51,299 nucleotides of DNA, taken from sequence record MZ234033.1. The stretch is one strand, 5' to 3'. Both the position numbers and the translations under genes were made by a program. Below the pieces are notes generated by a model. The model did no database searches and was not told the DNA's origin. It was given only the letters and a program-made list of their open reading frames with translations. Positions 1 to 51,299 of this stretch are shown piece after piece. Source of the stretch: Escherichia phage vB_EcoS-G3B1. How positions within the stretch are numbered: position 1 is the stretch's first letter; each line of letters opens with the position of its first letter.

Positions 1-127
1 AAGGAGTCAATAAGCCACGATGAATTTATGGGGATCTTGTTGTTCGGTGACTCTTATCGTCTTGGTTACAAGATGGTTGAGCTTGTGGAAGAGGTCAAAT
101 TCTAAATAGCACTTTTTGTTAAAACTC
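1..127. repeat. Terminal 127-bp sequence identical to 51173-51299 (circular closure overlap)
   Basis: First 127 bases of the window are repeated exactly at its end; the ORF 51092..51277 reads through the junction. Confidence 0.9.
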
Positions 128-7203: not shown

Positions 7204-7228
7204 TACCCGCCGCACGGCGGGTTTTTTA
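7204..7228 (+). terminator. Rho-independent terminator ending early + block
   Basis: GC hairpin CCCGCCGCACGGCGGG followed by TTTTTT. Confidence 0.6.
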
Positions 7229-28542: not shown

Positions 28543-28967
28543 GTTATTTTTTGTTTTCCGGTGTTATCGAATTTAAGACGGCGTAAATTTAGCGCAAAAT
28601 TTAGACAACATAAGATCAATAAACAATCAATAAAATAGATATATACATATAAAATCAATAGTTTATTTATTTATGTATGTATATTTGTTTTTTCTTGTTA
28701 TCTGCGTTTCTTGTGGTTTTGGTTGTTTGTGGTGATTTTTCTTTCTGAGTATCTGTATGTGCCATCATTCATGTGTATGTATATAATCCGGCGTATCTGA
28801 GAGAACATGGTAACAAGAAAAATAACACACATTAATCATTAACTTATGAGTCAAATCTGTTTTCTTGCCATCTGAGAACGTTTAGAAAACAGAAAAAACA
28901 AAACAGCTATTGACTAAATCAACCAAATGGCTACAATGCACGCATAAAGCAACAAGGAGCATTAAAG
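28543..28967. promoter_or_regulatory. AT-rich divergent intergenic island with ATCAATA repeats, GT-rich tract and promoter-like TTGACT-N17-TACAAT
   Basis: About 425 bp with no credible ORF; paralogous blocks shared with 49473-50084. Confidence 0.5.
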
Positions 28968-35596: not shown

Positions 35597-36073
35597 TTAG
35601 CTATTCGTGCTGTTATCACCTTTGTAGAATCGTCCGCCTGGTTCGTAGTCTGAATTTTTGACTACGCGCAACATATCGTATTTGTCGCAACGGGTAGTAA
35701 GAGGCTTACCGTTAGAATCAAACCGCAGATCTGGACGACAAAATGATGCGCGGTATCCTTTGCATCCATTATATTTGTAGTCGTTATGCACCTTTTGTGC
35801 TCCAGCGGCTGAAATCATACCACGCTTTCGCCACTGGTTAACGACTTGCTGAGATACGCGCAGACGTCGAGCCATAGCAGGAACGCCGCCGTAATACTCG
35901 ATCAGAATGTCAAGGCGAGATTTCAGGCTTGCTTTTACCTCATCTCGCAGGATAAGAAATCCGGTTCGGTGTTTTCGTGGTTTTTTGTCTTTACCTCGTC
36001 GCGTTCCGTTGTTACCGTTAATAGTGCGCTTGTCGATCTCACCCGTAGATACTGCAATTCGTGCATCTTTCAT
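35597..36073 (-). CDS. HTH DNA-binding protein (Cro/CI-type-like)
   Basis: Segment GGVPAMARRLRVSQQVVNQWRKRG typical of helix-turn-helix; 158 aa. Confidence 0.45.
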   Translation of the reverse strand: MKDARIAVSTGEIDKRTINGNNGTRRGKDKKPRKHRTGFLILRDEVKASLKSRLDILIEYYGGVPAMARRLRVSQQVVNQWRKRGMISAAGAQKVHNDYKYNGCKGYRASFCRPDLRFDSNGKPLTTRCDKYDMLRVVKNSDYEPGGRFYKGDNSTNS

Positions 36074-39900: not shown

Positions 39901-40132
39901 ACAAGGTAGAGAGGCGGTATGGAATCACGCTAAAGAATGCGGAATAGCCGACGATATAAAGAAGATCGCGCAATACTTTGATATTGCAGATGTGAGCATA
40001 ATTAGCGGCGATAAGATGACTTTCCTCAAGGAAAGGCCGCGAAAAATGGTAAGAGTTCCAGCAGTTCCAACAAAAATTGATTTCAAAGAGGCAATGGCTA
40101 AAATCCGAGAGCCTCGCAAATATTATAAATGA
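39890..40132 (+). CDS. Hypothetical protein (80 aa)
   Basis: First ATG in ORF overlapping upstream stop. Confidence 0.4.
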   Translation: MKVEQGREAVWNHAKECGIADDIKKIAQYFDIADVSIISGDKMTFLKERPRKMVRVPAVPTKIDFKEAMAKIREPRKYYK

Positions 40133-40226
40133 GGATAGTTATCATGTGGCGCTTGTTTGTTCTACCGTTACCCGTTATCATCGCTGTTACAGTTATGTAC
40201 CATATAGTGATGAGATAGGTGGCAGA

Positions 40227-41342
40227 ATGAAAAATGTAAAAATTACAGATGAGCAATTCAAGATCGAACGGGCGGCGGGTAAGACATATAAACAGATCGC
40301 TCAAGAGTACGGAATGAATGTGAGAAGCGTCGAGCGTCGCGCGGCGCGACTTGCAAAGCAAGGCCAGGTATCCACCATTGGAGCGCCTGGTTTTGGCGTT
40401 CATGGTGAGTCAGTAATGACTGACAAAGAAGGCAACATAATCCTAAAGTGGACTAAAACCAGCAAGGATAAAGAGCAATTAGAAGCATTAATGCGCGCAG
40501 CAATGGAGGCATTTAGCGAGGAAGTGCCGCGATTAGATCCGGTTCCATTACAGGAGCGCGACTATAACGAAACGCTTTCCTTGTATCCGATCTTTGACAT
40601 GCACTTAGGCGCTATGGCCCATAAGCACGAATGCGGCGAAAATTGGGATACTGCCACGGCAGAGCGCGTTATGAATAACTTTATCGACTATGCTTTAATG
40701 TGCGCACCGGATAGCGAAAAGGCTGTCATCCTGATTGGTGGCGATATGCTGCATAGCGACGGCCTGGAGGCGGTTACACCTGCAAGCGGTCACGTACTGG
40801 ATCAAGATAGTCGATATGCAAAATTGGTTTACGTTGCCATCCGTGCAATGCGACGAGCAATCAATAAAATGTTGTTAAAGCATAAACATGTTGAAGTCCA
40901 GATCGTAGAGGGCAATCATGACCAATCAGGAATGATTTGGCTGCGCGCAGCAATGGCGGCAGCATATGAAAACGAGCCGCGCGTTTACGTTGATGTTTCC
41001 CCTCGCGTTGTGCACCACACGCAATACGGAAAAACTTTCCTTGCGTACCATCACGGGCACACAGTGCGTAAACCGGAGACTTTGCTAATGATGTGCGCGT
41101 CAGATTGGCGGGAGGACTTCGGAAACTCAAAAACGATGTATGCGCACGTAGGGCACTGGCATCACCAGACCGTAACGGAAACGTCGCTTGGCATCGTGGA
41201 AGTACATAGCACCCTGGCGGCAAAAGACGCATACGCAGCGCGCGGTGGCTGGCGATCTCGACGCCGTGCGGCGGTTATCATTTACGACAAAGAGCATGGA
41301 GAGGTTGGGCGATTTGTTCACTATCCAGAAATGATGAATTGA
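40227..41342 (+). CDS. HTH-domain fused to calcineurin-like metallophosphoesterase
   Basis: N-terminal HTH (TYKQIAQEYGMNVRSVERRAARL); phosphoesterase motifs GDMLHSDG, GNHD, GHWHH; RBS AGGTGG before ATG 40227. Confidence 0.6.
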   Translation: MKNVKITDEQFKIERAAGKTYKQIAQEYGMNVRSVERRAARLAKQGQVSTIGAPGFGVHGESVMTDKEGNIILKWTKTSKDKEQLEALMRAAMEAFSEEVPRLDPVPLQERDYNETLSLYPIFDMHLGAMAHKHECGENWDTATAERVMNNFIDYALMCAPDSEKAVILIGGDMLHSDGLEAVTPASGHVLDQDSRYAKLVYVAIRAMRRAINKMLLKHKHVEVQIVEGNHDQSGMIWLRAAMAAAYENEPRVYVDVSPRVVHHTQYGKTFLAYHHGHTVRKPETLLMMCASDWREDFGNSKTMYAHVGHWHHQTVTETSLGIVEVHSTLAAKDAYAARGGWRSRRRAAVIIYDKEHGEVGRFVHYPEMMN

Positions 41343-41388
41343 TGAATTTTTATTTAAATCAATGACAAATTAAATCAAAAACTTGCAA

Positions 41389-41418
41389 AGGGGCGGCGTT
41401 TGTCGCCTCTTTTTTTTG
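41389..41418 (+). terminator. Rho-independent terminator before lysis cassette
   Basis: GC-rich hairpin (GGCGGCGTTTGTCGCC) then T8. Confidence 0.6.
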
Positions 41419-41487
41419 TTTAATTTTTTACCATGTACGTTTATCATGCGGTCAATATATTGACTTTAATTAATATGGAGAATAAAA

Positions 41488-41703
41488 ATGAAAGATTTTA
41501 TTAACGCAGCTACCGCTGGATCTGGCGGTTCATCTATCGCAAGCGCCGCTACAGGGCAGTTAACCATTGCTATTGCCAGCTTTGTTTTAATGGCTGCATT
41601 CGGTGCATGGGGCGCTTACCTTCGCTGGCGTGATAGTAAAAAATTCCACGAAGCGATCGAAAAAGGTGATATTCAAAAAGCTATTGAAATCAGGGGCAAG
41701 TAA
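41488..41703 (+). CDS. Holin (putative)
   Basis: 71 aa, hydrophobic core [21 protein letters not shown] with charged C-terminus; immediately upstream of endolysin. Confidence 0.6.
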
Positions 41704-42194
41704 TGAGCATAAAGAACAGGGTAGCGGCTGCGGCCTTTGGCGTTGCGGTTGCCTTGACTTCTCCACTTCTTGAAGAGATCGAAGGGGTAAGATACAAGCC
41801 ATACAAAGATATTGCTGGAGTATGGACTGTTTGCGCAGGAATCACCGGACCAGATGTTATCCTGGGGAAAACGTACACTAAAAAAGAGTGTGATGCTTTG
41901 TTGGCTAAGCATATCCAGGTTGCTAAAAAGGAAGTTGACAAGCAAGTTAAGGTTGATATTCCTGATAGTATGCGTGCAGCAATGTACTCATTCACTTACA
42001 ATGCAGGTGTGGGAGCTTTCAGAAATTCAACAATGCTGAAACTCATCAACCAGGGGAAATTAAACGAGGCTTGCGATCAGCTTTATCGTTGGACTTATTA
42101 CCATAACCAAAAAACAGGAAAGCGCGAGAAGTCTAAAGGCTTACTTAACAGGCGCAAGGTCGAATACAAATATTGCACAATGGATCTGAAATGA
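41703..42194 (+). CDS. SAR endolysin (lysozyme-like muramidase)
   Basis: N-terminal weakly hydrophobic signal-anchor ([14 protein letters not shown]) and E-x8-D-x5-T catalytic spacing ([16 protein letters not shown]). Confidence 0.75.
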
Positions 42195-42586
42195 TGAAGA
42201 ATTTTTTACTTACACCAATCGCAATGGCGGTGATCTTGTCTGGATGTTCAAGCGTTACGCCACTGACCGGATTAATCGGCAGTAAGCCGGAAATCACAGC
42301 ACAGGCTGGAGCGGAGAACGTGAAGCAGACAGTTGGCATTACAGCAAAGCAGGACGCCAGCACAAAACAGGAAACCACAATAAAGGAATCTGCGGTTGAC
42401 AAGGTGGACACGTCCAGCAAGAAGGATTTCACAACATCAACCATTCAGGCCAATACCATCAAGGCAGACAAAATTCAGGTCGTGCAGGGTAATAACGGCA
42501 GATGGTACGATCCAGTAATCATATGCGTGGTTGTGTTTCTTGTGCTGATTTGTCTTTACTGGAGAGAAAAGAAAAAGGAGGCTTAA
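42191..42586 (+). CDS. Unimolecular spanin (T1 gp11-like)
   Basis: N-terminal lipoprotein signal with lipobox LSGC plus C-terminal TM helix ([16 protein letters not shown]); last gene of lysis cassette. Confidence 0.7.
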
Positions 42587-42602
42587 TGCCTCCTTTATTT
42601 TT
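42576..42602. terminator. Bidirectional intrinsic terminator
   Basis: A-run, hairpin GGAGGCTTAATGCCTCC, T-rich tail; between convergent spanin and minus-strand genes. Confidence 0.6.
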
Positions 42603-42825
42603 ATGCGTCGGGCCACATATGAGTTTCGTTTGTTGGCTTGTTCGATTCGTCGTACTGCCTTACTTCAATGCTGCAAGTGTCGCCGTACATTTCTGCAATC
42701 TTGCGCTCATTTTCAACCGCCGATTGCTCACTCCAGCCTGAATCCTTATCGTAAACTGTCGGAATTTCAGAAGAAGATCCATTTGCATGATTGTATACGC
42801 GAACTACTAAAAACTTGCTGGACAT
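42601..42825 (-). CDS. Small hypothetical protein (74 aa)
   Basis: ATG 42825 preceded by AAGGAAAA and cassette leader; ORF-track start trimmed. Confidence 0.5.
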   Translation of the reverse strand: MSSKFLVVRVYNHANGSSSEIPTVYDKDSGWSEQSAVENERKIAEMYGDTCSIEVRQYDESNKPTNETHMWPDA

Positions 42826-42845
42826 AATTTTTCCTTTTTGGTTGG

Positions 42846-42907
42846 TTCGTTTCGATGAAACAAATATACCCGACACAAGGTCGGGAGTTTTAACAAAAAA
42901 TGCTATT
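42846..42907 (-). promoter_or_regulatory. Cassette motif variant + hairpin + TATATT + conserved CATCGAAACGAAC leader (minus)
   Basis: Minus-strand GGAATAGCATTTTTTGTTAAAAC, hairpin CCCGACCTTGTGTCGGG, TATATT, TTTCATCGAAACGAACC. Confidence 0.55.
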
Positions 42908-43023
42908 CCATACGCTTTACTGTAACCAATAACACACCATCATCATTGCATAAAACGTGTTCAGTGGTGCTAAAAGCTCGCATATCTGAATAAAGTAGCG
43001 TAAGTAAAGCATGAATAAAATCA

Positions 43024-43419
43024 TCATGTGATATTGAATTTACGGCGCAGTGCTTCAAGATCTTGTCTATTAGCTTTTGCCTGGAACAATTCATCATCGC
43101 CCATCTCCCCTATTCTAGCTATATCCCTGATCCAGTCGTTGCGCATACCATCCAGGCTATACAATTCGAATCCGAAAGGCCGCTTTGACGATCCTTTGGA
43201 CCAGTATTTTCCGCAGACTCCATCTATATAACCAGCCGTCATCATTCTTGCGCAAAATTCCTTAGATGCAAGGCTGGCGAACATTCGCGGCGTAAGTCCG
43301 GCGGCCCGTGCGAGCCGCTCACATTCTCTATGCTGATAGATAAATTTGGCTATGTGCTGCCTGTTAAACCAATCGTATGACTCACACCATTTATACAGAT
43401 CAAGCAAAAACATAATCAT
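43024..43419 (-). CDS. Hypothetical protein (131 aa)
   Basis: Start overlaps stop of upstream P-loop gene. Confidence 0.5.
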   Translation of the reverse strand: MIMFLLDLYKWCESYDWFNRQHIAKFIYQHRECERLARAAGLTPRMFASLASKEFCARMMTAGYIDGVCGKYWSKGSSKRPFGFELYSLDGMRNDWIRDIARIGEMGDDELFQAKANRQDLEALRRKFNIT

Positions 43420-44996
43420 CCCAGCAGTATTGGATTGACAAAAATAACACCATTAATCACACAAACATAATTTCTTTCTTCCAGCATTGGCAGTAAGTGC
43501 CCTTCTATCCTTTTCATTACTCCAGCCTGACCAACGAAAGGTTTTACCTTTCTCGCTGATTCGTACAGGGCGCGGATATTCAGAATCCCTTTATTAGCCT
43601 TGCCGTGCCTCGTGATCAATTCAATCAATTTACCCATTTCAGCATCATCACCAGCATAACCAGAAGCATTGGCGGCGCTAATGTATGTTTTGCTCAATTC
43701 CTGAAACATGATCAACGCCTCTTGCATTGTTTCCACGTCGATCTCTTTCGACTTCTGCGGGTATCCGGCAGGATTAAACCAGTTACGGATAACATGCAGG
43801 ACGGAAGCAAGCCTGATCACCTGTTTATCCATTTTACCCAGCGCACCGCGTAACATTGTATGAGAATACTTTCCTCCGTCTGCAAGATGCGGTTCCATAT
43901 CCTGGCGAGCAATGTTGAGCACTCGCATAGCTGAACGGCTTATTTTCAGCGATATATTTGATTCGCTCATGATGTTATGCACCAATTGATAATATTGGGC
44001 TTTCAATTCAGAATCCACCGCCTCATAGGTAGAATCACCATTTTCATCAATGAATGAGCGACGGCCTAAGAATGATTCCTCTCGGACCAACAAAAAACGC
44101 TCACTAACACCGATGCCTCGCGATCCAGCGTCCATGATTCCGCTTATCGTTTCATCCTGGGCTATGACGCTCATACATCCAAGCGCGCGAAAACTCATAT
44201 TATTGTCAGCATTAGCACGGGCAATTGATACGTGACCATTATCCCACGCCTTAAGCACTAACTCACTGTTAGTCTTCCTTTCGCTATTTGCATATGTCAA
44301 GCCTAACAGACTGTTAATACTTGTTGCTTCATCAGATATTACGGCAAAGTTACCTTGCTTGTTGTTGATTTTCGCCAAGCCTTCTGGAGTTGTATCTGAA
44401 ACAGGAAAAGTTATATCACACATTTTTTCCAGCTTTTCCTCCAGATCCTCTTTTTCCTGGTATAGAGATTCCATATCAGCGCCGGATCTTTCGCTTTTCA
44501 TCTCCTTTGCAAGACCTGCCAGCTTTGCCTGTATTTTCTTTCTTTCCTTGCGGCGTTGCTCGTTGATCTTCTCAACTTCCGCAATCATCGGAGCAATAGC
44601 CATGCTGTTGATCGCAGATTTACCAGTTGACGGCGGCTGGCTTGTAACGACGTAAAGCGCAGTCGGCTGATCGGTTCCGTGATAGTCAACCGTAAAGCGT
44701 CCAAGCATAGCGGCAGAAATGCAGCCGATAAAGTGCATGTAAGCCGATGATTCAGGGAATTGAACGGATCGCGCAATGCTGCGTGATAACTTGCCGACAA
44801 CATCAATATCATTACCAAGAGAAATAACGGGGTAGCGATCGTGACCGCTATTCACATCCTTTACGTCGCCCCAAAAGCTGGACGACTGGCGATAGCCGTT
44901 AGCCTGAATTGATACGCGAACTGGCGAAAGGTTCTGGCTTTCAGCCATAGCGATTATTTGTTGTGGAGTTAATTTGTTCGTTTCTAATGAAAACAT
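43416..44996 (-). CDS. P-loop NTPase of unknown function (526 aa)
   Basis: Walker A SQPPSTGKSA and Walker B-like AVISDEAT; RBS AAAGGAGAAG before ATG 44996; first gene of a cassette. Confidence 0.6.
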   Translation of the reverse strand: MFSLETNKLTPQQIIAMAESQNLSPVRVSIQANGYRQSSSFWGDVKDVNSGHDRYPVISLGNDIDVVGKLSRSIARSVQFPESSAYMHFIGCISAAMLGRFTVDYHGTDQPTALYVVTSQPPSTGKSAINSMAIAPMIAEVEKINEQRRKERKKIQAKLAGLAKEMKSERSGADMESLYQEKEDLEEKLEKMCDITFPVSDTTPEGLAKINNKQGNFAVISDEATSINSLLGLTYANSERKTNSELVLKAWDNGHVSIARANADNNMSFRALGCMSVIAQDETISGIMDAGSRGIGVSERFLLVREESFLGRRSFIDENGDSTYEAVDSELKAQYYQLVHNIMSESNISLKISRSAMRVLNIARQDMEPHLADGGKYSHTMLRGALGKMDKQVIRLASVLHVIRNWFNPAGYPQKSKEIDVETMQEALIMFQELSKTYISAANASGYAGDDAEMGKLIELITRHGKANKGILNIRALYESARKVKPFVGQAGVMKRIEGHLLPMLEERNYVCVINGVIFVNPILLG

Positions 44997-45014
44997 TCGT
45001 TAGCTTCTCCTTTG

Positions 45015-45070
45015 TGGGCCGTAAATTTTAACGGCCCAATACTACCCCGTTTTGTCAAAAAGTGCTATTT
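45015..45070 (-). promoter_or_regulatory. Cassette motif variant + hairpin (minus)
   Basis: Minus-strand AAATAGCACTTTTTGACAAAAC then hairpin GGGCCGTTAAAATTTACGGCCC then RBS. Confidence 0.5.
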
Positions 45071-45286
45071 GATCCGCTCTATTGCAACCAGAAGTCGATC
45101 AGGCTGGCGGTCGCTGTAGCATTCTCCTGTAATCCCATCCTTAAACGTAAAGTAAAGCGCCTTATGATATGAAAAACCAATCAGCCAACCTACCGCCGTT
45201 TTTTTGGTTGGCCTGACTATATCGCCAGGCTTGAAAGTCTTTGTGGTAGAATGCGTTACTTTGTAACGGTTCTCACTGTTTATCAC
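45065..45286 (-). CDS. Small hypothetical protein (73 aa)
   Basis: ORF in minus cassette array with overlapping start. Confidence 0.5.
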   Translation of the reverse strand: MINSENRYKVTHSTTKTFKPGDIVRPTKKTAVGWLIGFSYHKALYFTFKDGITGECYSDRQPDRLLVAIERIK

Positions 45287-45669
45287 AGATATTTGCCCTC
45301 AAACAGATAACATCCGCCAGCAGAGAATCCGACCTCTTCACGGTACAGGTTCCAGCGGTCGCCGCACTCATCAAAAACATAACCCGCAACGCTTCCAAGC
45401 GGTCGCCCTTTCTCGATCTGGTATCGCTTTCCCTGCTTAAAGTGCTTTTTGCACGGCATGTTATGATCTACAAACGTGCAAATAACGGTTTTTGTGTTAA
45501 TTGCGCGGTAATCATCTCGGTTTGCTGGAAGCCAACGGCTACCCTTAACAAGCGTCTTAACCTGGAACTCTTCCAACTCGATCACATCATTACTTCCTGC
45601 AATCTTCTGATAAACCGTTTTAAAACGGCCTTTCATCAATACGTTGGTTTCATTACAGATAACATTCAT
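45283..45669 (-). CDS. Hypothetical Cys-containing protein (128 aa)
   Basis: RBS AAAGGAGATCTAATC before ATG 45669; first gene after cassette motif. Confidence 0.55.
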   Translation of the reverse strand: MNVICNETNVLMKGRFKTVYQKIAGSNDVIELEEFQVKTLVKGSRWLPANRDDYRAINTKTVICTFVDHNMPCKKHFKQGKRYQIEKGRPLGSVAGYVFDECGDRWNLYREEVGFSAGGCYLFEGKYL

Positions 45670-45689
45670 GATTAGATCTCCTTTGTTTG

Positions 45690-45744
45690 TTCGATGTGAT
45701 TATGCCAGGTTTTTACACCTGGCTTTTAACAAAAAGTGCTATTT
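45690..45744 (-). promoter_or_regulatory. Cassette motif + hairpin + CATAAT + CACATCGAAC leader (minus)
   Basis: Minus-strand AAATAGCACTTTTTGTTAAAA, hairpin GCCAGGTGTAAAAACCTGGC, CATAATCACATCGAACAAAC. Confidence 0.55.
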
Positions 45745-46455
45745 TGAGTTTGACTCAAATACGGCGCGAGCAAATCCGCGCGGAGTGAGGGAGCGGATCA
45801 TCTTTGTGCGTGATGAATTGCCGCCAGTTTTGGCCCACCCTGGATTATCTTTGTCTTTCTCTTTCGGCAGGATTAAAGCGCGTGGAGGAATAACAAAGCC
45901 GTTGCCAGTCCAGAGGCATGTTTTCTTAAAGTAGCGATCCCGCGCCGGAATAATATCAGGGAAGTCGGGATGTTTATCATCTTCCGGCAGATAGCCAGCG
46001 TAATCGCACGGATGGAACGTATAATCAGGCTTTCGCCATAACGTTGACAACTTGCCAACCGGATTTTCGATCATGTATGGAACACCGAAATAATCAGCTA
46101 TATCAGCCGCGATCCTGCAAGTGTCTGCGGCCTCATCCTGGAAAGATGGATTTTTAAGGCGCTTTTTAGCCCAATGGCGAGATCCGCTATTTGCAAGGTC
46201 GGTGCATGGTGGGAAGGCCATAATAAAATCAGGATTGCCCCACTCATTATTGATTGCCTTAACATAAAAAGCATCATCAATCCAGACGTTAACGTATTCG
46301 ATATTCTCATGCTGTATGCGCACTGACTGGTAATCACCGTGATCGCCGCCGTCAGCATTAAAGCAAATGCACTTATAGCCATTATCAGCCCAATCTTTAA
46401 CGGCTTTACCAGATCCATCAAATAGGGAGAATATTAAACCTTTATACATCGTCAT
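45739..46455 (-). CDS. Minimal C5-cytosine-methyltransferase-like protein (no obvious target-recognition domain)
   Basis: Motif I-like FSLFDGSG, PC dipeptide in MAFPPCTDLANSG, ENV-like MIENPVG, C-terminal RSLTPRGFARA; only about 238 aa. Confidence 0.4.
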   Translation of the reverse strand: MTMYKGLIFSLFDGSGKAVKDWADNGYKCICFNADGGDHGDYQSVRIQHENIEYVNVWIDDAFYVKAINNEWGNPDFIMAFPPCTDLANSGSRHWAKKRLKNPSFQDEAADTCRIAADIADYFGVPYMIENPVGKLSTLWRKPDYTFHPCDYAGYLPEDDKHPDFPDIIPARDRYFKKTCLWTGNGFVIPPRALILPKEKDKDNPGWAKTGGNSSRTKMIRSLTPRGFARAVFESNSK

Positions 46456-46459
46456 TACC

Positions 46460-46684
46460 TCAAAACGGAAAACAGCGTGGACAACTAGGATCAAAATCGC
46501 ATCCACAATCATTAACAATCATAGTGGGATCTGCAAATATTGCGCTTGATTCAAGATCCATATCCATATCACCTAAAGCCTCATCAAGAGTCTTAATTTT
46601 ATATGCCACTTCAAGCGCCGCCTCTTTATTTAGTCCGGCATCTTCTGCCATTTGAAGGCGTTCAAAAAATCCGTCTTGACTCAT
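46460..46684 (-). CDS. Small acidic Cys-cluster protein (74 aa)
   Basis: D/E-rich with C-terminal CGCDFDPSCPRC; translationally coupled to neighbours. Confidence 0.5.
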   Translation of the reverse strand: MSQDGFFERLQMAEDAGLNKEAALEVAYKIKTLDEALGDMDMDLESSAIFADPTMIVNDCGCDFDPSCPRCFPF

Positions 46685-46797
46685 CGCATAATCCCCTTAA
46701 TAACAGCCAAGATAATAGCTAGGCCAGCAGCAGTAACCAAAAAACCAACCGCGCCAATAATCGAATAAAAAAAGAAATCAATAGCTTTATCTATCAT
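46681..46797 (-). CDS. Small hydrophobic peptide (38 aa)
   Basis: RBS GAGGTGGAA before ATG 46797; hand translation MIDKAIDFFFYSIIGAVGFLVTAAGLAIILAVIKGIMR; ATGA overlap with next gene. Confidence 0.3.
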   Translation of the reverse strand: MIDKAIDFFFYSIIGAVGFLVTAAGLAIILAVIKGIMR

Positions 46798-46838
46798 TTC
46801 CACCTCATTTAAAAGGCGGCAAAACGCCGCCAGATTAA

Positions 46839-47066
46839 TCAAAGAGCGCGCCAACTTTGAATATAGAAAGCATTTTCTTCCAGTAATTCTTTTACCTGAT
46901 CTTTATTGTATTTGCGCACCTTACCGCCTGGATGGATACCAATAAGATAGCCGCCTTTGCCCTCGGTGATAGTGATTTGGCTAATTCCGCAAGACTTATC
47001 AAGTTTTACAGCCACGCGGTGATGAGCGTCAATAGTTGACATAATGTTTAAAACTTTTGCTTTCAT
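46839..47066 (-). CDS. Small hypothetical protein (75 aa)
   Basis: ORF followed by hairpin GGCGGCAAAACGCCGCC. Confidence 0.5.
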   Translation of the reverse strand: MKAKVLNIMSTIDAHHRVAVKLDKSCGISQITITEGKGGYLIGIHPGGKVRKYNKDQVKELLEENAFYIQSWRAL

Positions 47067-47174
47067 TTAAATATCCTCAATTGAAATATGAATGGCGTCG
47101 TGCTCTTTTTCCGTCGCCGCCGTAATGGTCATTTGCAACCGCTACCATCCAGGCATTTTTAAAAATAAATAGCC

Positions 47175-47387
47175 TCATTTCTTATTTTTCATCTTAAATT
47201 TATGGCCCGGAACACCAGCGCCAATATAGCCATCGTTGTATTCCATCAAATAAAGGTGAAGACCATTATCTGAAATTAAATGAGGATCTTCTTTGAGGTT
47301 TCCCATTAGTGGGTATTCTTTTCCGCGCGTAAATTTCCAAATTGAGTTATAAGTTTCTACGCATTTAAGTTTTAATTGCTTTGCCAT
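47175..47387 (-). CDS. Small hypothetical protein (70 aa)
   Basis: Start overlaps upstream stop. Confidence 0.5.
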   Translation of the reverse strand: MAKQLKLKCVETYNSIWKFTRGKEYPLMGNLKEDPHLISDNGLHLYLMEYNDGYIGAGVPGHKFKMKNKK

Positions 47388-47584
47388 TAAATGATCTCCA
47401 TGTATGTTTCAAAGCCATTTAACTTGAACAGGCCGTTTTCACATTTGCGCACGTTCCAAGTTAGCCCTGAGTGGTACGCCTCCATATCATCAAGGTCAAT
47501 GGTGATTTCAGCACCTTTCTTAAACAAACCCTTTTCGTGAGACTTGTCGCGCTTAACAACTTTAACATCAACCTGATTTTCCAT
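47387..47584 (-). CDS. Small hypothetical protein (65 aa)
   Basis: RBS GAGGATTTAAAG before ATG 47584 after cassette leader; ORF-track start trimmed. Confidence 0.5.
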   Translation of the reverse strand: MENQVDVKVVKRDKSHEKGLFKKGAEITIDLDDMEAYHSGLTWNVRKCENGLFKLNGFETYMEII

Positions 47585-47599
47585 CTTTAAATCCTCGCT

Positions 47600-47660
47600 T
47601 GTTGTCGATGGGTGTAATATACCATTCAGGCGCACATCGTTTTTAACGAAAAGTGCTATT
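47600..47660 (-). promoter_or_regulatory. Cassette motif variant + TATATT + CCCATCGACAAC leader (minus)
   Basis: Minus-strand AATAGCACTTTTCGTTAAAA ... GGTATATTACACCCATCGACAACAAGCGAGGA. Confidence 0.5.
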
Positions 47661-47946
47661 CAACAACTTTTCCAGTTAAAGAGATAAGTTGCCTTGTAAT
47701 CTTGTGGCGGCGATACTTACGCGCAACAACAGGAAGGCTTTCACCGCTTTGATGACCAAAGCAGATCGGCAATTCACCTTCAAGGGAGCGGAAGCCACCA
47801 AATTCAAGATCCCGCACTGGCTTAGCGCGCCAGGCTTCAATAAATCCGCGTTCGTCACGAGTGATATAGCGGTATATGTTCGGGAGGGGCAATTGTATCC
47901 CCTCAAAATCCACGGTATCGGTATAGCTATAAAACTTAGAACTCAT
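47656..47946 (-). CDS. Small hypothetical protein (96 aa)
   Basis: Start taken at ATG 47946 (MSSKFYSY...); stop embedded in cassette motif. Confidence 0.45.
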   Translation of the reverse strand: MSSKFYSYTDTVDFEGIQLPLPNIYRYITRDERGFIEAWRAKPVRDLEFGGFRSLEGELPICFGHQSGESLPVVARKYRRHKITRQLISLTGKVVE

Positions 47947-48088
47947 AGTCAACAACTCCAAACTCATTGACGATTTGCGCCTTGTAGAATCCGCCATTTT
48001 TCGCCAGGTTGTAACAAGCGGCTACGGTTTCAAATTCGCGCGCTTCCGGCTGGCTGTTTTCGTGTTCCCAGGTAATCAGAGTAACCAT
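47936..48088 (-). CDS. Small hypothetical protein (50 aa)
   Basis: RBS GAGGATTTGAAA before ATG 48088 right after cassette leader; hand-translated MVTLITWEHENSQPEAREFETVAACYNLAKNGGFYKAQIVNEFGVVDYEF. Confidence 0.3.
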   Translation of the reverse strand: MVTLITWEHENSQPEAREFETVAACYNLAKNGGFYKAQIVNEFGVVDYEF

Positions 48089-48094
48089 TTTCAA

Positions 48095-48167
48095 ATCCTC
48101 GCATTCGTTGTCGATGCGTGTAATGTACAGGAATACGAGGATTGAGTTTTAACAAAAAGTGCTATTT
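48095..48167 (-). promoter_or_regulatory. Cassette motif + TACATT + CGCATCGACAACGA leader (minus)
   Basis: Minus-strand AAATAGCACTTTTTGTTAAAAC ... TACATTACACGCATCGACAACGAATGCGAGGA. Confidence 0.55.
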
Positions 48168-48429
48168 AGTCCAGAAATTCGATTTCACGCTCTCCAGTTA
48201 ACGGATCTGCAAGCCAGAATCCGAGCGGTTCGCCGTGAGCACCGCCATAGAATCCAAGCGCCGCCAGATCTTCACCTTTAACGAATACCAGATTTCCGCT
48301 ACGACTTACGTGAGAAACGTTAACGATAACCGGAAATGTGCGATCCTTAAATGCAGGCCGCAGGGCGTAACATCCGTTATTGAGCAAACGTGCTTTGCGC
48401 TTAACTGGAATAGGTGCATTAATTTTCAT
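48166..48429 (-). CDS. Small hypothetical protein (87 aa)
   Basis: RBS GGAGTAATAACC before ATG 48429. Confidence 0.5.
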   Translation of the reverse strand: MKINAPIPVKRKARLLNNGCYALRPAFKDRTFPVIVNVSHVSRSGNLVFVKGEDLAALGFYGGAHGEPLGFWLADPLTGEREIEFLD

Positions 48430-48655
48430 GGTTATTACTCCTTATCGTAAAGATTTAAAGACGTATAGTTTATTTCGGTAACTATATATCCGCATTGTTA
48501 TTTCTCGCAGCGCAATATATTCCTTCCTGTTTTCCGGAAGACTGGCGAGCAACAACAGACAGTATTTATAAGCGCGGTCAAGATTCCTTTCCGTGCCCCT
48601 GCAATATCCCTTATTGCGCCTGGAGCGGTACAGCCATAACAATTTCTTGAACATT
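48430..48655 (-). promoter_or_regulatory. Probable noncoding regulatory island inside the minus cassette array
   Basis: Inverted repeat TATAGTTA-N8-TAACTATA near 48463-48490 and TTTTCCGGAAG element; the overlapping ORFs lack an RBS and are arginine/tyrosine-rich. Confidence 0.35.
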
Positions 48656-48865
48656 TCAGATCCGCCCATACAGATCGCAAACTTCGTTGATAAAACAGCG
48701 TTGAGAATCTTTATCCTGCTTCTCAAAAATTGCGCGGCATTCAAACTTAAGATTATGCACGATGACTACAACCATATTTTCAGGCATTGAGCGGTTATAG
48801 CGTCGCGCGTCAGTGATTAAAACATCCATACCCATCTCATGTGCTTTCTTGATCACATCCAACAT
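48656..48865 (-). CDS. Small hypothetical protein (69 aa)
   Basis: RBS GGAGAAG before ATG 48865; ORF-track start trimmed. Confidence 0.45.
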   Translation of the reverse strand: MLDVIKKAHEMGMDVLITDARRYNRSMPENMVVVIVHNLKFECRAIFEKQDKDSQRCFINEVCDLYGRI

Positions 48866-49119
48866 TTTTTCTTCTCCTGCAATAAGCAAACATCATTGAT
48901 AAAATCAGCACGGCCCTTAATGTTGCTGATGTGGAACGTCTTTTCAGCGTACAGGCCATCACCTTCAATCACGATCATTACGCGAGTCGGTTTATTCACG
49001 GGCGCACACGAAAAGAGTGGTCGCGCCGGAAGAAATTTAGTGGTCACATCCAGGTTAGCCCTTGCGGCCCTGCAAAATGCCTCCGCCAGATCCAAATCAT
49101 TTTCGGTAATCACCGCCAT
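48853..49119 (-). CDS. Small hypothetical protein (88 aa)
   Basis: Start overlaps upstream stop. Confidence 0.5.
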   Translation of the reverse strand: MAVITENDLDLAEAFCRAARANLDVTTKFLPARPLFSCAPVNKPTRVMIVIEGDGLYAEKTFHISNIKGRADFINDVCLLQEKKKCWM

Positions 49120-49391
49120 TACTTCTTGATCTCCTTACTGATAAATTTCAGCACCTGGCGCAAGAAAACTTCGTTGTTGATAGTCGCTGGCAATTCTTCT
49201 TTCACTTCTTGCGGCAGATAGATATTGCCGTGCCAGGTCAAGCAATCGTAGTTGATACGATAAGAGCAAAGCCACTCGCAATCGTTATCTGCTTCCCAAA
49301 TGCAGAGTTGCAGAACATCGCCAAAATCTTCAACAGTCAGATCCAGACCGTGACGCTTGGCGAAATTGAAAGTGGTTTTGCTGATGTTCAT
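49119..49391 (-). CDS. Small acidic hypothetical protein (90 aa)
   Basis: First gene after cassette leader; RBS CAGGAGATAG. Confidence 0.5.
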   Translation of the reverse strand: MNISKTTFNFAKRHGLDLTVEDFGDVLQLCIWEADNDCEWLCSYRINYDCLTWHGNIYLPQEVKEELPATINNEVFLRQVLKFISKEIKK

Positions 49392-49411
49392 TTACTATCT
49401 CCTGAGCGGTT

Positions 49412-49472
49412 CGTTTCGATGTGTGTAATGTACCCGATCAGGTGGCCTGAGTTTTAACAAAAAGTGCTATTT
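49412..49472 (-). promoter_or_regulatory. Cassette motif + TACATT + CACATCGAAACGAAC leader (first minus cassette)
   Basis: Minus-strand AAATAGCACTTTTTGTTAAAAC ... GGGTACATTACACACATCGAAACGAACCGCTCAGGAG. Confidence 0.55.
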
Positions 49473-50084
49473 GACAGTTAGCACCAGGATTGTGATCGAA
49501 ATAATCAAAAGTAATCATTCGTAATCAAATCACGTCAAAATGATGATTGTCTTTGCAAATTTGATGAGAAAAGTAATCACGTTTAATCATTGGTTGCAGG
49601 GGAGATAGTGAAACCTTCCCCTCTTGCCTCACTTTTCCGCCTGGCTGTCAGTGGTTGTTGTCTTTTGTTCACCACTGTTACCGATTTCATGCGGCGTGTT
49701 TCCGCGCGGTTTTCCGGTGTATCGAAAACGGAAAAAACAAAAAAAATCCTTTATAATACATTGAAAATAAAGATTATTTATTTATATATATCTATAATGT
49801 TTTCTTTTTGTTCTCACTGTTACAGTGCTTTTTGTTGGGTGTGGTGTGGTTGTGTGTTGGTATATATGGATAGTTGCGCGCGCGGCGGATTGCATATGTA
49901 TATATACTTTTTCCGGCGGATTGCGTTAACAGCGTGAACAGAAAAATAACAGCACTGAAATCAATAACTTGCGCATGATTTTGTAGTTTTTCGATATTGG
50001 TAACGTTTTGAATACAACAAAAACATTGACACGCACCAAATAGCTTTTATAATGCGCCAACAGTCAACAACTGGAGGAAAGGAA
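49473..50084. promoter_or_regulatory. AT-rich divergent intergenic island with GTAATCA iterons, GT-rich tract and near-consensus sigma70 promoter (TTGACA 50026-50031, TATAAT 50048-50053)
   Basis: About 610 bp without credible ORF; shares GTTTTCCGGTGT(T)ATCGAA, GT-rich and TGTATGTATATA blocks with 28543-28967. Confidence 0.55.
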
Positions 50085-50549
50085 ATGGAACAGAAGACCA
50101 CTAAGGACTATTGCGATTGGCTTCGCGAGCTTGGTCGCCGCCTGGCTAGTGGCGATATTGAAGAGTATAAAATGTCACTAATTGACCTGGCCGGAATGTT
50201 AAGCGGTGACGACTGCTACAAGATCACGCGCAGTTCATCCTACAGCCGGACCATTATCAACCGCGTTCCAGAAGTAAGGGCCGCAGGTCGGGTAAGCATC
50301 AAGGTAGAGGAAACGGAAGATGATAAATTTTACGTTTTCCGCATGGTCCGCGAATCGAAAAGGAAAATCATCACACCCGAAGAATTGCCAGCCATCAAGG
50401 CAAGGGCGATCAAAAAGTTTGCCGATCGCATACTGGCAGCAATCCCGAATATCGTGGACCTGGAAGGGGATAAACTGGCTGGGGCTTGCGAGGGTGTAAG
50501 CCGCTACCAGGATATGATCCGCGAAATCATCAAAGAGGAAGAGCAATGA
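50085..50549 (+). CDS. Hypothetical early protein (154 aa)
   Basis: RBS GGAGGAAAGGAA before ATG 50085, directly downstream of consensus promoter; ORF-track start 50052 lies inside the -10. Confidence 0.55.
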   Translation: MEQKTTKDYCDWLRELGRRLASGDIEEYKMSLIDLAGMLSGDDCYKITRSSSYSRTIINRVPEVRAAGRVSIKVEETEDDKFYVFRMVRESKRKIITPEELPAIKARAIKKFADRILAAIPNIVDLEGDKLAGACEGVSRYQDMIREIIKEEEQ

Positions 50550-50818
50550 AAAAGGCATTAATCAGCGTTTTGGCGGCAATGGCATTCCTGACCGGATGCA
50601 AAGAAGATGGCGCGCATGTTGGCAATGTGCAGATGGCTAACCCTGGCGATGACTACAGCGTAAGGGAGCTATTCACCGCTGACGGTTGCACCGTTTACCG
50701 ATTCTATGACGATCGCACTGTTTACTTCACCAACTGCAAGGGCACTACTAGCTGGGAAGTGTCGAAAAGCAATGGCAAAGGCACGAAGACAGAACATATG
50801 ACCGTCGAGACAAAATAG
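50546..50818 (+). CDS. Early lipoprotein (90 aa; candidate superinfection exclusion or receptor-masking protein)
   Basis: Signal peptide with lipobox LTGC (MKKALISVLAAMAFLTGC); ATGA overlap with upstream gene. Confidence 0.55.
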   Translation: MKKALISVLAAMAFLTGCKEDGAHVGNVQMANPGDDYSVRELFTADGCTVYRFYDDRTVYFTNCKGTTSWEVSKSNGKGTKTEHMTVETK

Positions 50819-50874
50819 CACTTTTTGTTAAAACGCCAGGCGCAAAGCCTGGCATAATAGCCTCATCGAAACGA
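50813..50874 (+). promoter_or_regulatory. Cassette motif + hairpin + CATAAT + CATCGAAACGAGATTG leader
   Basis: AAATAGCACTTTTTGTTAAAAC on stop codon, hairpin GCCAGGCGCAAAGCCTGGC, CATAAT, CTCATCGAAACGAGATTGAGGAAA. Confidence 0.55.
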
Positions 50875-50890
50875 GATTGAGGAAACAAAA

Positions 50891-51076
50891 ATGGCACGTC
50901 GCATCACCAAAGACCTTAAAGTCCTGAACAAAGAAAACGTAGTTAAAATCCTGGTTATCTGGGGCTACAACGAAGAAACAGCAAAGCAGAAGGTAGAGGC
51001 AGGTTATGACCTGGCTGTAAAAGCAATGCCAAACGATGACGCCAAAGGCATTGCAAACTATGTAGCGTTCTTTTAA
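50891..51076 (+). CDS. Small hypothetical protein (61 aa)
   Basis: First ORF after cassette leader. Confidence 0.5.
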   Translation: MARRITKDLKVLNKENVVKILVIWGYNEETAKQKVEAGYDLAVKAMPNDDAKGIANYVAFF

Positions 51077-51091
51077 TTAGCAGGTGAATAG

Positions 51092-51277
51092 ATGAAAACG
51101 AAACTAGTCCATAAGTCAGAAATCAAGATCGGCGATACTGTGATTCACAACGGCGAGCTTAGAACGGTTGGCAAGGAGTCAATAAGCCACGATGAATTTA
51201 TGGGGATCTTGTTGTTCGGTGACTCTTATCGTCTTGGTTACAAGATGGTTGAGCTTGTGGAAGAGGTCAAATTCTAA
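51092..51277 (+). CDS. Small hypothetical protein (61 aa), runs across the circular junction
   Basis: RBS AGGTGAATAG; C-terminal ELVEEVKF resembles the EFEEVK ends of 1171..1634 proteins; stop inside cassette motif. Confidence 0.5.
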   Translation: MKTKLVHKSEIKIGDTVIHNGELRTVGKESISHDEFMGILLFGDSYRLGYKMVELVEEVKF

Positions 51278-51299
51278 ATAGCACTTTTTGTTAAAACTC

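What the first reader, a model, noticed from the sequence alone, without database searches (positions are those of the whole stretch)
50026..50053. Near-consensus sigma70 promoter (TTGACA-N16-TATAAT) in front of the first + strand early gene
TTGACA at 50026-50031 and TATAAT at 50048-50053 with 16-bp spacer, followed by RBS GGAGG and ATG 50085. Unlike the cassette promoters it has a canonical -35, marking a likely immediate-early start. The spacer contains AAATAGC, a partial cassette motif.
Basis: seen in the sequence. Interest (0 to 1): 0.4.

Follow-up and report, generated by a model that had tools for sequence, protein, structure and literature searches.

The report
Rightward early promoter of T1-like phage
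This is a textbook-perfect host-type (sigma-70) promoter heading the rightward block of small early genes in a T1-like coliphage. Related phages keep a promoter at the same place, so it is almost certainly real, but it is an ordinary feature already predicted in a sister phage.

Summary
TTGACA (50026-50031), a 16-nt spacer and TATAAT (50048-50053) are the only 12/12 sigma-70 match in the window (0.03 expected by chance). GGAGG (50073-50077) and ATG 50085 follow.

The window is a complete, circularly closed genome of a T1-like phage (Drexlerviridae, Warwickvirus; 98-99% identical to tunzivis, tonn and tonnikala). The site lies in the 693-bp divergent intergenic region. It sits 31 nt before the first rightward gene, a DUF7174 protein of unknown function.

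In 24 of 35 distinct related upstream regions from several genera, a 10-12/12 sigma-70 site heads the same gene block, against about 0.04 expected per region. These sites share an A-tract before the -35 and a G+C-rich discriminator, while their spacers differ.

The site matches in position the in-silico promoter P01 of phage TLS. It differs from the 18 repeat-cassette promoters, which lack a -35.

Best reading: the host-RNA-polymerase start point of the rightward early arm. The timing is inferred only, because no start-site data exist for any T1-like phage.

Two minor leads remain. The core is identical to E. coli rrnB P1 over TATAATGCGCCA and has the same 16-bp spacer. AAATAGC in the spacer fits chance here, but one relative carries the 9-mer AAATAGCAC there. 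Interest is low.

The parts
50012..50025 (+). A-rich tract directly upstream of the -35 (TACAACAAAAACA), a probable proximal UP-element subsite for the RNA polymerase alpha C-terminal domain
   Evidence: Sequence. In 24 distinct orthologous promoters, A is the majority base at 71-96% in five of the positions 4-10 nt upstream of the -35, and the 12 nt upstream are 60% A. The comparison with the UP proximal consensus AAAAAARNR is from memory of Estrem et al. 1999 and is an inference.
50026..50031 (+). -35 hexamer TTGACA (6/6)
   Evidence: TTG and C are at 100%, the fourth base A at 92% and the last base A at 83% in the 24 orthologous sites. This is partly circular, because the sites were picked by hexamer match.
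50032..50047 (+). 16-nt spacer CGCACCAAATAGCTTT, containing AAATAGC (50038-50044), which equals the first 7 nt of the 22-nt cassette repeat
   Evidence: The spacer sequence is not conserved between genera and its length is 15-17 nt.
50048..50053 (+). -10 hexamer TATAAT (6/6)
50054..50061 (+). G+C-rich discriminator GCGCCAAC. The 12 nt TATAATGCGCCA are identical to E. coli rrnB P1.
   Evidence: The rrnB P1 sequence was read in PMC7822876. The 6 nt after the -10 are 72% G+C across orthologous promoters, against 44.6% for the genome.
50059..50062 (+). Predicted transcription start (A at 50059, 50060 or 50062, 6-9 nt after the -10), giving a 5' leader of about 23-26 nt
   Evidence: Inference from the usual sigma-70 geometry, not measured. 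The leader and start of the gene (50059-50130) are no more structured than shuffled sequence, z = -0.07, and the Shine-Dalgarno region is unpaired.
50073..50077 (+). Shine-Dalgarno sequence GGAGG, 7 nt before the ATG
50085..50549 (+). First rightward gene: 154-aa DUF7174 / phrog_4841 protein of unknown function
50546..50818 (+). Second gene, start overlapping the stop of the first (ATGA): 90-aa predicted lipoprotein (signal peptide ending in the lipobox LTGC) with a DUF4884 match
   Evidence: Sequence. Pfam DUF4884 E 1e-7.
7205..7222 (+). First strong intrinsic terminator on the + strand downstream of the promoter (reading across the circular junction), just before the small terminase gene. 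It is the likely far end of the roughly 8.3-kb rightward arm.
   Evidence: T1 has an annotated terminator at the equivalent place, 8322-8344, before the small terminase gene at 8396. Whether transcripts from 50026 reach it is not known.

Best explanation
The site is the rightward early promoter of this T1-like phage. Unmodified host RNA polymerase carrying sigma-70 recognises it as soon as the DNA is in the cell. The proposed contacts are sigma region 4 on TTGACA, sigma region 2 on TATAAT, and probably an alpha C-terminal domain on the A-tract just upstream. Transcription would start at an A 6-9 nt after the -10. It would yield a short, unstructured leader with a strong ribosome-binding site, then the DUF7174 gene and the translationally coupled lipoprotein gene. 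It would then run on into the block of small genes that crosses the circular junction towards the terminator in front of the terminase genes. Downstream genes carry additional repeat-cassette promoters that lack a -35 and so may need something more than host holoenzyme. The sequence and its conservation are shown. Sigma-70 dependence, the start point, the immediate-early timing and the length of the transcript are inferred.
For: The site is a 12/12 match, unique in 51.3 kb, with 0.03 expected by chance. It sits 31 nt before the first gene of the rightward arm of a divergent intergenic region. In 12 of 15 GenBank relatives, and in 24 of 35 distinct upstream regions once IMG/VR loci are added, a site of 10/12 or better lies within 450 nt upstream of the DUF7174 orthologue. 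In the GenBank relatives it lies 30-39 nt before the annotated start of that gene, or of an extra small ORF inserted ahead of it. The background is 0.079 sites per kb per strand, or about 0.036 per region. The A-tract and the G+C-rich discriminator are conserved without having been selected for. Hanrivervirus-type relatives share the left part of the intergenic region at about 85% identity but not the right part, and sampled members of that genus nevertheless carry a consensus promoter there. The 106 nt around the site are 99-100% identical in 43 GenBank phages. [quoted passage not shown] They also report no phage RNA polymerase or sigma gene in TLS. No + strand terminator is found between the promoter and 7205.
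Against: There is no experimental start-site, in vitro transcription or time-course evidence for this or any T1-like phage. A 16-bp spacer is one base short of the optimum. T1 itself has only a 9/12 site in the equivalent place (TTGACA-17-AACACT). The phSE-2 group has 9/12, and Henu7-type loci show nothing at 9/12, so a strong promoter here is not universal in the family. The hexamer conservation figures are partly circular, because sites were chosen by hexamer match.
Confidence: 0.85

Rival explanations
1. The site is a real sigma-70 promoter, but its main role is not to open the temporal programme. It could be active throughout infection. Alternatively, together with the leftward cassette promoter at 49472-49428, it could drive divergent transcription that helps unwind the conserved AT-rich island between them (49700-49830), a candidate replication origin or packaging region.
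For: The island is 25-26% G+C, is conserved across genera and lies between the two outward-facing promoters. The T1 record, whose first 2800 bp are annotated as the terminal repeat, begins in this same intergenic region about 200 nt left of the equivalent island. Five TAATCA copies at 10-bp phasing lie beside it. Nothing tested here bears on timing.
Against: The promoter is coupled at a fixed short distance to a strong ribosome-binding site and a conserved gene in every genus. That points to gene expression as its primary selected function. No origin has been mapped in any T1-like phage.
Confidence: 0.1
2. The match is a chance occurrence in AT-rich intergenic DNA and has no promoter function.
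For: Consensus scans find about as many 9/12 sites in the region as in shuffled sequence (16 versus 21.9), so weak matches mean little here.
Against: Only 0.03 perfect matches are expected per window. Sites of 10/12 or better are enriched by more than two orders of magnitude at the same position in relatives. The flanking promoter features are also conserved.
Confidence: 0.03
3. The site is a derivative of the repeat-cassette promoters and, like them, depends on or is controlled by the unknown factor that reads the 22-nt repeat. The AAATAGC box in the spacer would then act as an operator that shuts the promoter off when the cassettes switch on.
For: AAATAGC lies in the spacer. The homologous BEBK14 spacer has the 9-mer AAATAGCAC, the most conserved block of the repeat, and that 9-mer has only two non-repeat copies in this genome. 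A box at about -22 to -14 would put a bound protein where it blocks RNA polymerase.
Against: Only the first third of the repeat is present. It lies 1-3 nt from the -10, whereas in the cassettes that block ends 31 nt upstream of the -10. The conserved cassette leader CATCGAAACGA is absent. The 7-mer has 15 other non-repeat copies in the genome. Spacers in Jahat, W011D, TLS, Stevie, grams and others lack it.
Confidence: 0.07

Closest known systems
Promoter P01 of phage TLS (Tlsvirus), predicted in silico in PMC11447400, Supplementary Table S1
   Same: It holds the same position: in the divergent intergenic region, 39 nt before the first rightward gene gp01, which is the DUF7174 orthologue (41% identity). 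It has the same A-tract before the -35 (cacaaaaaactac TTGACG) and a strong -10 (GATAAT).
   Different: TLS P01 scores 10/12 with a 15-nt spacer and an ATGCCT discriminator. The window site scores 12/12 with a 16-nt spacer and GCGCCA. The two regions no longer align as DNA. Neither has been tested experimentally.
Strong early promoters of virulent coliphages read by host sigma-70 holoenzyme (T7 A1-A3, T5 early promoters, T4 early promoters)
   Same: Near-consensus -35 and -10 hexamers, A/T-rich DNA upstream, a position at the head of a block of small early genes, and a phage with no polymerase of its own at that stage. This comparison rests on established knowledge; the TLS paper also draws the T5/T4 comparison.
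   Different: Those promoters have mapped start sites and measured strengths, and this one has neither. T7 A1 has an A+T-rich discriminator (PMC7822876), whereas this one is G+C-rich.
E. coli rrnB P1 (ribosomal RNA promoter)
   Same: A 16-bp spacer, TATAAT, and an identical GCGCCA discriminator start, giving 12 contiguous identical nt. An A lies 9 nt after the -10 in both, and both have A/T-rich DNA upstream of the -35.
   Different: rrnB P1 has a non-consensus -35 (TTGTCA) and a full UP element. The phage site has a consensus -35, which from established knowledge of rrn P1 mutants would lengthen open-complex life and blunt ppGpp/DksA control. The exact 12-mer is found only in the window's near-identical relatives among the fetched loci, although G+C-rich discriminators are general in the family.
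The 21-22-nt intergenic direct-repeat cassettes of T1-like phages (aaATAGCACnnnTTGnTAAAA; PMC11447400)
   Same: Same genome and same orientation rule (upstream of start codons, in the direction of transcription). Each ends in a -10-like hexamer. They share the 7-mer AAATAGC.
   Different: The cassettes have the repeat in place of a -35, a fixed gap of mostly 17-18 nt to the -10, and a conserved CATCGAAACGA leader. The site at 50026 has a true -35, no repeat and a different leader.

Membership tests
Sigma-70 (housekeeping) -35/-10 promoter | -35 hexamer close to TTGACA | tested here: met
   TTGACA, 6/6, at 50026-50031.
Sigma-70 (housekeeping) -35/-10 promoter | -10 hexamer close to TATAAT, with A at position 2 and T at position 6 | tested here: met
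   TATAAT, 6/6, at 50048-50053.
Sigma-70 (housekeeping) -35/-10 promoter | Spacer of 17 +/- 1 bp | tested here: met
   16 bp. Orthologous sites have 15-17 bp.
Sigma-70 (housekeeping) -35/-10 promoter | Primary transcript 5' end 6-9 nt downstream of the -10, produced by sigma-70 holoenzyme | not testable with these tools
   Purines are available at 50059, 50060 and 50062. No start-site data were found for any T1-like phage.
Orthologue of TLS promoter P01 (rightward early promoter of Tempevirinae) | Lies in the divergent intergenic region, directly upstream of the DUF7174 gene or of a small ORF inserted before it | tested here: met
   31 nt before the DUF7174 gene in the window and 39 nt in TLS. 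The arrangement is the same in 24 of 35 distinct related regions.
rrn P1-type, ppGpp/DksA-sensitive promoter | G+C-rich discriminator between the -10 and the start site | tested here: met
   GCGCCAAC. The first six bases are identical to rrnB P1.
rrn P1-type, ppGpp/DksA-sensitive promoter | Sub-optimal 16-bp spacer | tested here: met
   The rrnB P1 spacer was counted from the sequence in PMC7822876.
rrn P1-type, ppGpp/DksA-sensitive promoter | Full UP element at -60 to -40 | tested here: inconclusive
   Only a proximal A-tract is evident (CAACAAAAA). The distal part, CGTTTTGAATA, matches poorly. This was judged by eye against a consensus recalled from memory.
rrn P1-type, ppGpp/DksA-sensitive promoter | Short-lived open complex; inhibition by ppGpp/DksA; start 9 nt from the -10 | not testable with these tools
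   This needs in vitro kinetics or reporter assays. The consensus -35 argues for a more stable complex than at rrnB P1.
T1-like direct-repeat cassette promoter | 22-nt repeat AAATAGCACnnnTTGnTAAAAC ending 17-18 nt upstream of the -10 | tested here: not met
   No copy with up to 4 mismatches lies between 49473 and 50812. Only the 7-mer AAATAGC is present, 3 nt from the -10.
T1-like direct-repeat cassette promoter | Conserved leader CATCGAAACGA-like sequence right after the -10 | tested here: not met
   The leader here is GCGCCAACAGTCAACAACTGG, unlike the cassette leaders.

The most novel reading that the evidence does not exclude
The promoter could act as a physiological gate and a timed switch as well as a strong start signal. 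Its rrnB-P1-like core (16-bp spacer, TATAATGCGCCA, G+C-rich discriminator, the last a family-wide trait) would tie the phage's first transcription to the host's growth state through ppGpp/DksA and initiating-NTP sensing. The repeat-core box in its spacer (AAATAGC here, AAATAGCAC in BEBK14) would let the still-unidentified protein that reads the 22-nt cassettes turn it off while turning the -35-less cassette promoters on. This would resemble the way phi29 p4 or T4 MotA/AsiA re-route host polymerase.
Probability: 0.12. Interest if true: 0.55.

Novelty: new member of a known kind. Interest (0 to 1): 0.2.

Why it matters
On its own it matters little: it is a canonical host-type promoter where one is expected. 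Its use is as an anchor. T1-like phages have very few canonical promoters (three accepted in TLS) and many -35-less repeat cassettes whose function the TLS authors list as an open question. Fixing the one clear host-polymerase entry point defines which genes can be made before any phage factor exists: DUF7174 and the lipoprotein first. That narrows the search for whatever reads the cassettes. The sequence is 99-100% identical in 43 sequenced phages, including a BASEL-collection phage, so one experiment would cover many isolates. As a compact perfect-consensus promoter with a G+C-rich discriminator, it could also serve to test stringent control of phage early transcription.

Tried and rejected
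1. Rfam scan of 48500-51299 at E up to 1 gave only a sub-threshold Ocean-V hit (23 bits against a gathering score of 75) on the minus strand at 49631-49747. No known RNA family lies at or near the promoter.

2. A leftward sigma-70 partner promoter was sought in the intergenic region. None scores 9/12 or better on the minus strand between 49392 and 50084. The first leftward gene is preceded by a repeat cassette instead.

3. Structure in the 5' leader was checked and is no different from shuffles.

4. I tested whether DUF7174 is the cassette-binding factor.
- Foldseek finds nothing significant, and a profile search of PDB sequences finds nothing.
- T1 has the same repeat sequence, yet its first gene is only a sub-threshold DUF7174 relative with a different putative recognition helix. 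That argues against the idea.
- The Cro/YdaS-like protein at 35597-36073 is 59% identical to T1 ST23 and is a better-conserved candidate. This was not pursued.

5. An IMG/VR scan for AACATTGACA-N16-TATAATG, meant to sample more spacers, returned 40 stretches. Only two could be matched to T1-like contigs already fetched; the rest were not examined. It was not informative.

The T1 genome paper was not held.

7. Literature searches for start-site or RNA-seq data on Drexlerviridae found none. The one RNA-seq paper that mentions the family studied a T5-like phage.

Full report
**What the window is**

The 1.9 kb around the finding is 98-99% identical to Escherichia phages tunzivis, tonn, tinuso, tonnikala and SECphi27. 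GenBank classifies tonnikala as Drexlerviridae, Tempevirinae, Warwickvirus. The first 127 nt of the window are identical to the last 127 nt. The window is therefore a circularly closed assembly of a genome of about 51,172 bp.

Genes on the minus strand run leftward from 49391 through small ORFs to a DNA methyltransferase and a helicase. Genes on the plus strand run rightward from 50085, across the junction, to the terminase genes at about 7236. The finding lies in the 693-bp divergent intergenic region between these two arms.

**The observation**

- TTGACA is at 50026-50031, the 16-nt spacer follows, and TATAAT is at 50048-50053.
- GGAGG is at 50073-50077, and the ATG is at 50085.
- The site scores 12/12. 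Nothing else in 40000-51299 exceeds 9/12, and nothing else in the whole window reaches 12/12.
- TTGACA-N15-19-TATAAT is expected 0.03 times per window from dinucleotide shuffles.

**Comparative evidence that it is a promoter**

The downstream gene encodes a 154-aa DUF7174 / phrog_4841 protein. tblastn matches it in 191 GenBank phage records. I fetched its upstream DNA from 15 GenBank relatives and 26 IMG/VR loci.

- Twelve of the 15 GenBank relatives have a site of 10/12 or better. It lies 30-39 nt before the start codon of the DUF7174 orthologue, or before a small extra ORF inserted ahead of it in Samwise and the K50 phages.
- Over all distinct upstream regions the figure is 24 of 35. The background in the same loci is 0.079 sites per kb per strand, or about 0.036 per 450-nt region.
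- The spacers differ completely between genera.
- An A-tract directly before the -35 recurs: A is at 71-96% in five of the positions 4-10 nt upstream.
- A G+C-rich stretch after the -10 also recurs: 72% G+C against 44.6% for the genome. Neither of these two features was used to find the sites.
- Hanrivervirus-type relatives share the left 450 bp of the intergenic region at about 85% identity but not the right part. Sampled members of that genus nevertheless carry a consensus promoter in the equivalent place. A promoter kept at the same spot while the surrounding DNA has diverged beyond alignment points to selection for the function.
- The conservation is not universal. T1 has only TTGACA-17-AACACT (9/12) 61 nt before its first gene. 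The phSE-2 group has 9/12, and Henu7-type loci show nothing at 9/12.

**Relation to what is published**

[quoted passage not shown] One of them is P01 at TLS 523-549, 39 nt before gp01. TLS gp01 is the DUF7174 orthologue, so P01 is the positional equivalent of the site in the window.

The same paper describes 18 intergenic 21-nt repeats (aaATAGCACnnnTTGnTAAAA) about 76 nt upstream of start codons. It lists their function as an open question.

The authors also report no phage RNA polymerase or sigma gene in TLS. All promoter statements I found for T1-like phages are in silico. I found no start-site or temporal transcript data.

**The cassettes, for contrast**

The window has 18 distinct copies of the repeat within 4 mismatches. 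In most copies the 22-nt repeat is followed by 17-18 nt, often a short hairpin. Then comes a -10-like hexamer (CATAAT, TATAAT, TACATT or TATAGT), a conserved CATCGAAACGA-like leader, a Shine-Dalgarno sequence and the ATG.

Where a -35 hexamer would sit, the cassettes have TAAAAC or AAAACn. They are -35-less, with the repeat spanning roughly -52 to -31. T1 has the same repeat and the same layout.

The first leftward gene (start at 49391) is served by such a cassette (49472-49451 on the minus strand). No sigma-70-type site of 9/12 or better faces left in the intergenic region. Whether the cassettes need a phage factor is not known.

**Mechanism proposed**

Host sigma-70 holoenzyme binds the -35 and -10, with the A-tract as a likely alpha-CTD contact, and starts at an A at 50059-50062. 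The leader is short and no more folded than shuffled sequence (z = -0.07), with an exposed GGAGG.

The DUF7174 gene is followed by a lipoprotein gene (lipobox LTGC, DUF4884) whose ATG overlaps the stop codon as ATGA. That suggests translational coupling.

No plus-strand terminator is predicted until 7205-7222, just before the small terminase gene. This matches the terminator annotated in T1 at 8322-8344. Transcripts could in principle run about 8.3 kb, reinforced by internal cassettes at 50813, 104, 1096, 2546 and 5181.

The sequence and its conservation are shown. Sigma-70 dependence, the start point, the timing and the transcript length are inferred.

**Two details worth recording**

First, the core resembles E. 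coli rrnB P1. The rrnB P1 sequence printed in PMC7822876 is TTGTCA, a 16-nt spacer, TATAAT, then GCGCCACCA with the last A as +1. The window has TTGACA, a 16-nt spacer, TATAAT, then GCGCCAACA.
- Twelve contiguous bases are identical and the spacer length is the same.
- That paper links G+C-rich discriminators to ppGpp/DksA sensitivity.
- The family-wide G+C-rich discriminator makes growth-state control of the first phage transcript a reasonable, testable idea.
- From established knowledge of rrn P1 mutants, the consensus -35 should stabilise the open complex and weaken any such control.
- The exact 12-mer occurs only in the window's near-identical relatives among the fetched loci.

Second, AAATAGC in the spacer.
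- The 7-mer has 15 other copies outside the repeats in this genome.
- A random 16-mer from this genome contains a 7-mer of the repeat 1.6% of the time, and a 7-mer of the AAATAGCAC core 0.2% of the time.
- Spacers of other genera lack it.
- The homologous BEBK14 spacer has the 9-mer AAATAGCAC, which has only two non-repeat copies in this genome.
- A protein that binds this block would activate from about -50 in a cassette and block RNA polymerase from about -20 here. I rate this as possible but unlikely.

**What the promoter expresses**

DUF7174 has no assigned function. An AlphaFold model built from 15 sequences has mean pLDDT 82. It shows an N-terminal helix/strand/three-helix/beta-hairpin half and two long C-terminal helices.

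T1's first gene is only a sub-threshold DUF7174 relative (E 2e-4), while T1's repeat is identical. That argues against DUF7174 being the repeat reader.

**Verdict**

The immediate-early label is plausible but untested. The feature is a canonical sigma-70 promoter whose counterpart in TLS has already been predicted, so it is a new member of a known kind and of low interest. Its practical value is as the defined host-polymerase entry point for studying the unexplained cassette promoters of T1-like phages.

Noticed in passing
window 1-127 and 51173-51299: The two ends of the window are exactly identical over 127 nt and not over 128. This looks like the overlap left by an assembler closing a circular or terminally redundant genome. 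The unique length is 51,172 bp, and the repeat copy at 104 is the same copy as the one at 51276.
   Followed up: yes
window 49700-49830: An AT-rich island (25-26% G+C) is conserved across Warwickvirus, Tlsvirus, Henuseptimavirus, and Salmonella and Klebsiella phages, while its flanks diverge. Its consensus reads roughly AAAAACAAA..CCTATAATACATTGAAAATAAAG..TTATTTATATATATCTAT..TTGTT..TGTT. It lies between the two outward-facing promoters, and several GenBank records start or end near it. It is a candidate replication origin or packaging region. The origin is unmapped in T1-like phages.
   Followed up: partly
window 49502-49589: There are five direct copies of TAATCA (49502, 49512, 49522, 49574, 49584), spaced exactly 10 bp apart within each of two groups, plus an inverted TGATTG at 49544-49549. 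T1 has similar GATTA/TAATC runs at 121-160 and 398-422, next to position 1 of its record, whose first 2800 bp are annotated as the terminal repeat. They may be binding sites for the small terminase or an initiator protein.
   Followed up: partly
window 49883-49893 and 49914-49924: An exact 11-nt direct repeat, CGGCGGATTGC, occurs twice 31 nt apart, flanking a TATATATA stretch in the variable right half of the intergenic region. It is unexplained.
   Followed up: no
window, 18 distinct cassette copies (e.g. 50813-50834, 49472-49451 minus strand, 48167-48146 minus strand): Each repeat cassette has a fixed layout: the 22-nt repeat, a gap of mostly 17-18 nt that often forms a 5-7-bp G+C-rich hairpin, a -10-like hexamer, the leader CATCGAAACGA, then the Shine-Dalgarno sequence. 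There is no -35, and the repeat spans about -52 to -31. T1 has the same layout. The geometry recalls activator-dependent or sigma-appropriation promoters such as T4 middle promoters. The TLS paper lists the function as an open question.
   Followed up: partly
window 35597-36073 (minus strand) and 36152-36124 (minus strand): A 157-aa protein has a sub-threshold Cro/YdaS-type helix-turn-helix match. It is 59% identical to T1 ST23, which is annotated 'transcriptional regulator'. It is preceded by a sigma-70-like site, TTTAAA-17-TATAAT, which equals TLS P57. It is much better conserved between T1 and this phage than DUF7174 is, which makes it a candidate reader of the conserved repeat.
   Followed up: partly
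window 28910-28937 (+) and 34691-34663 (minus strand): These are the other strong sigma-70-like sites. TTGACT-16-TACAAT lies 30 nt before the gene at 28968 and is the likely equivalent of TLS P51, judged by position and sequence resemblance. TTGACA-17-GATAAT lies upstream of the 663-aa gene that starts at 34504.
   Followed up: no
window 50546-50818: The second rightward gene encodes a 90-aa predicted lipoprotein (MKKALISVLAAMAFLTGC..., DUF4884). Its start codon overlaps the stop of the DUF7174 gene as ATGA. An early-expressed lipoprotein could be a superinfection-exclusion or envelope-modifying factor. In T1 the known Cor exclusion gene lies elsewhere.
   Followed up: no
window 7205-7222: A bidirectional intrinsic terminator (ACCCGCCGCACGGCGGGT with T-runs on both strands) separates the small-gene arm from the terminase genes.
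   Followed up: no
L015/L042 (T1) 539-1114: T1's first gene, ST77, gives a weak Pfam hit to the anti-CRISPR family AcrF2 (E 0.005, below the cutoff) alongside its sub-threshold DUF7174 hit. The window protein gives no such hit at E up to 0.01. It is probably noise.
   Followed up: no
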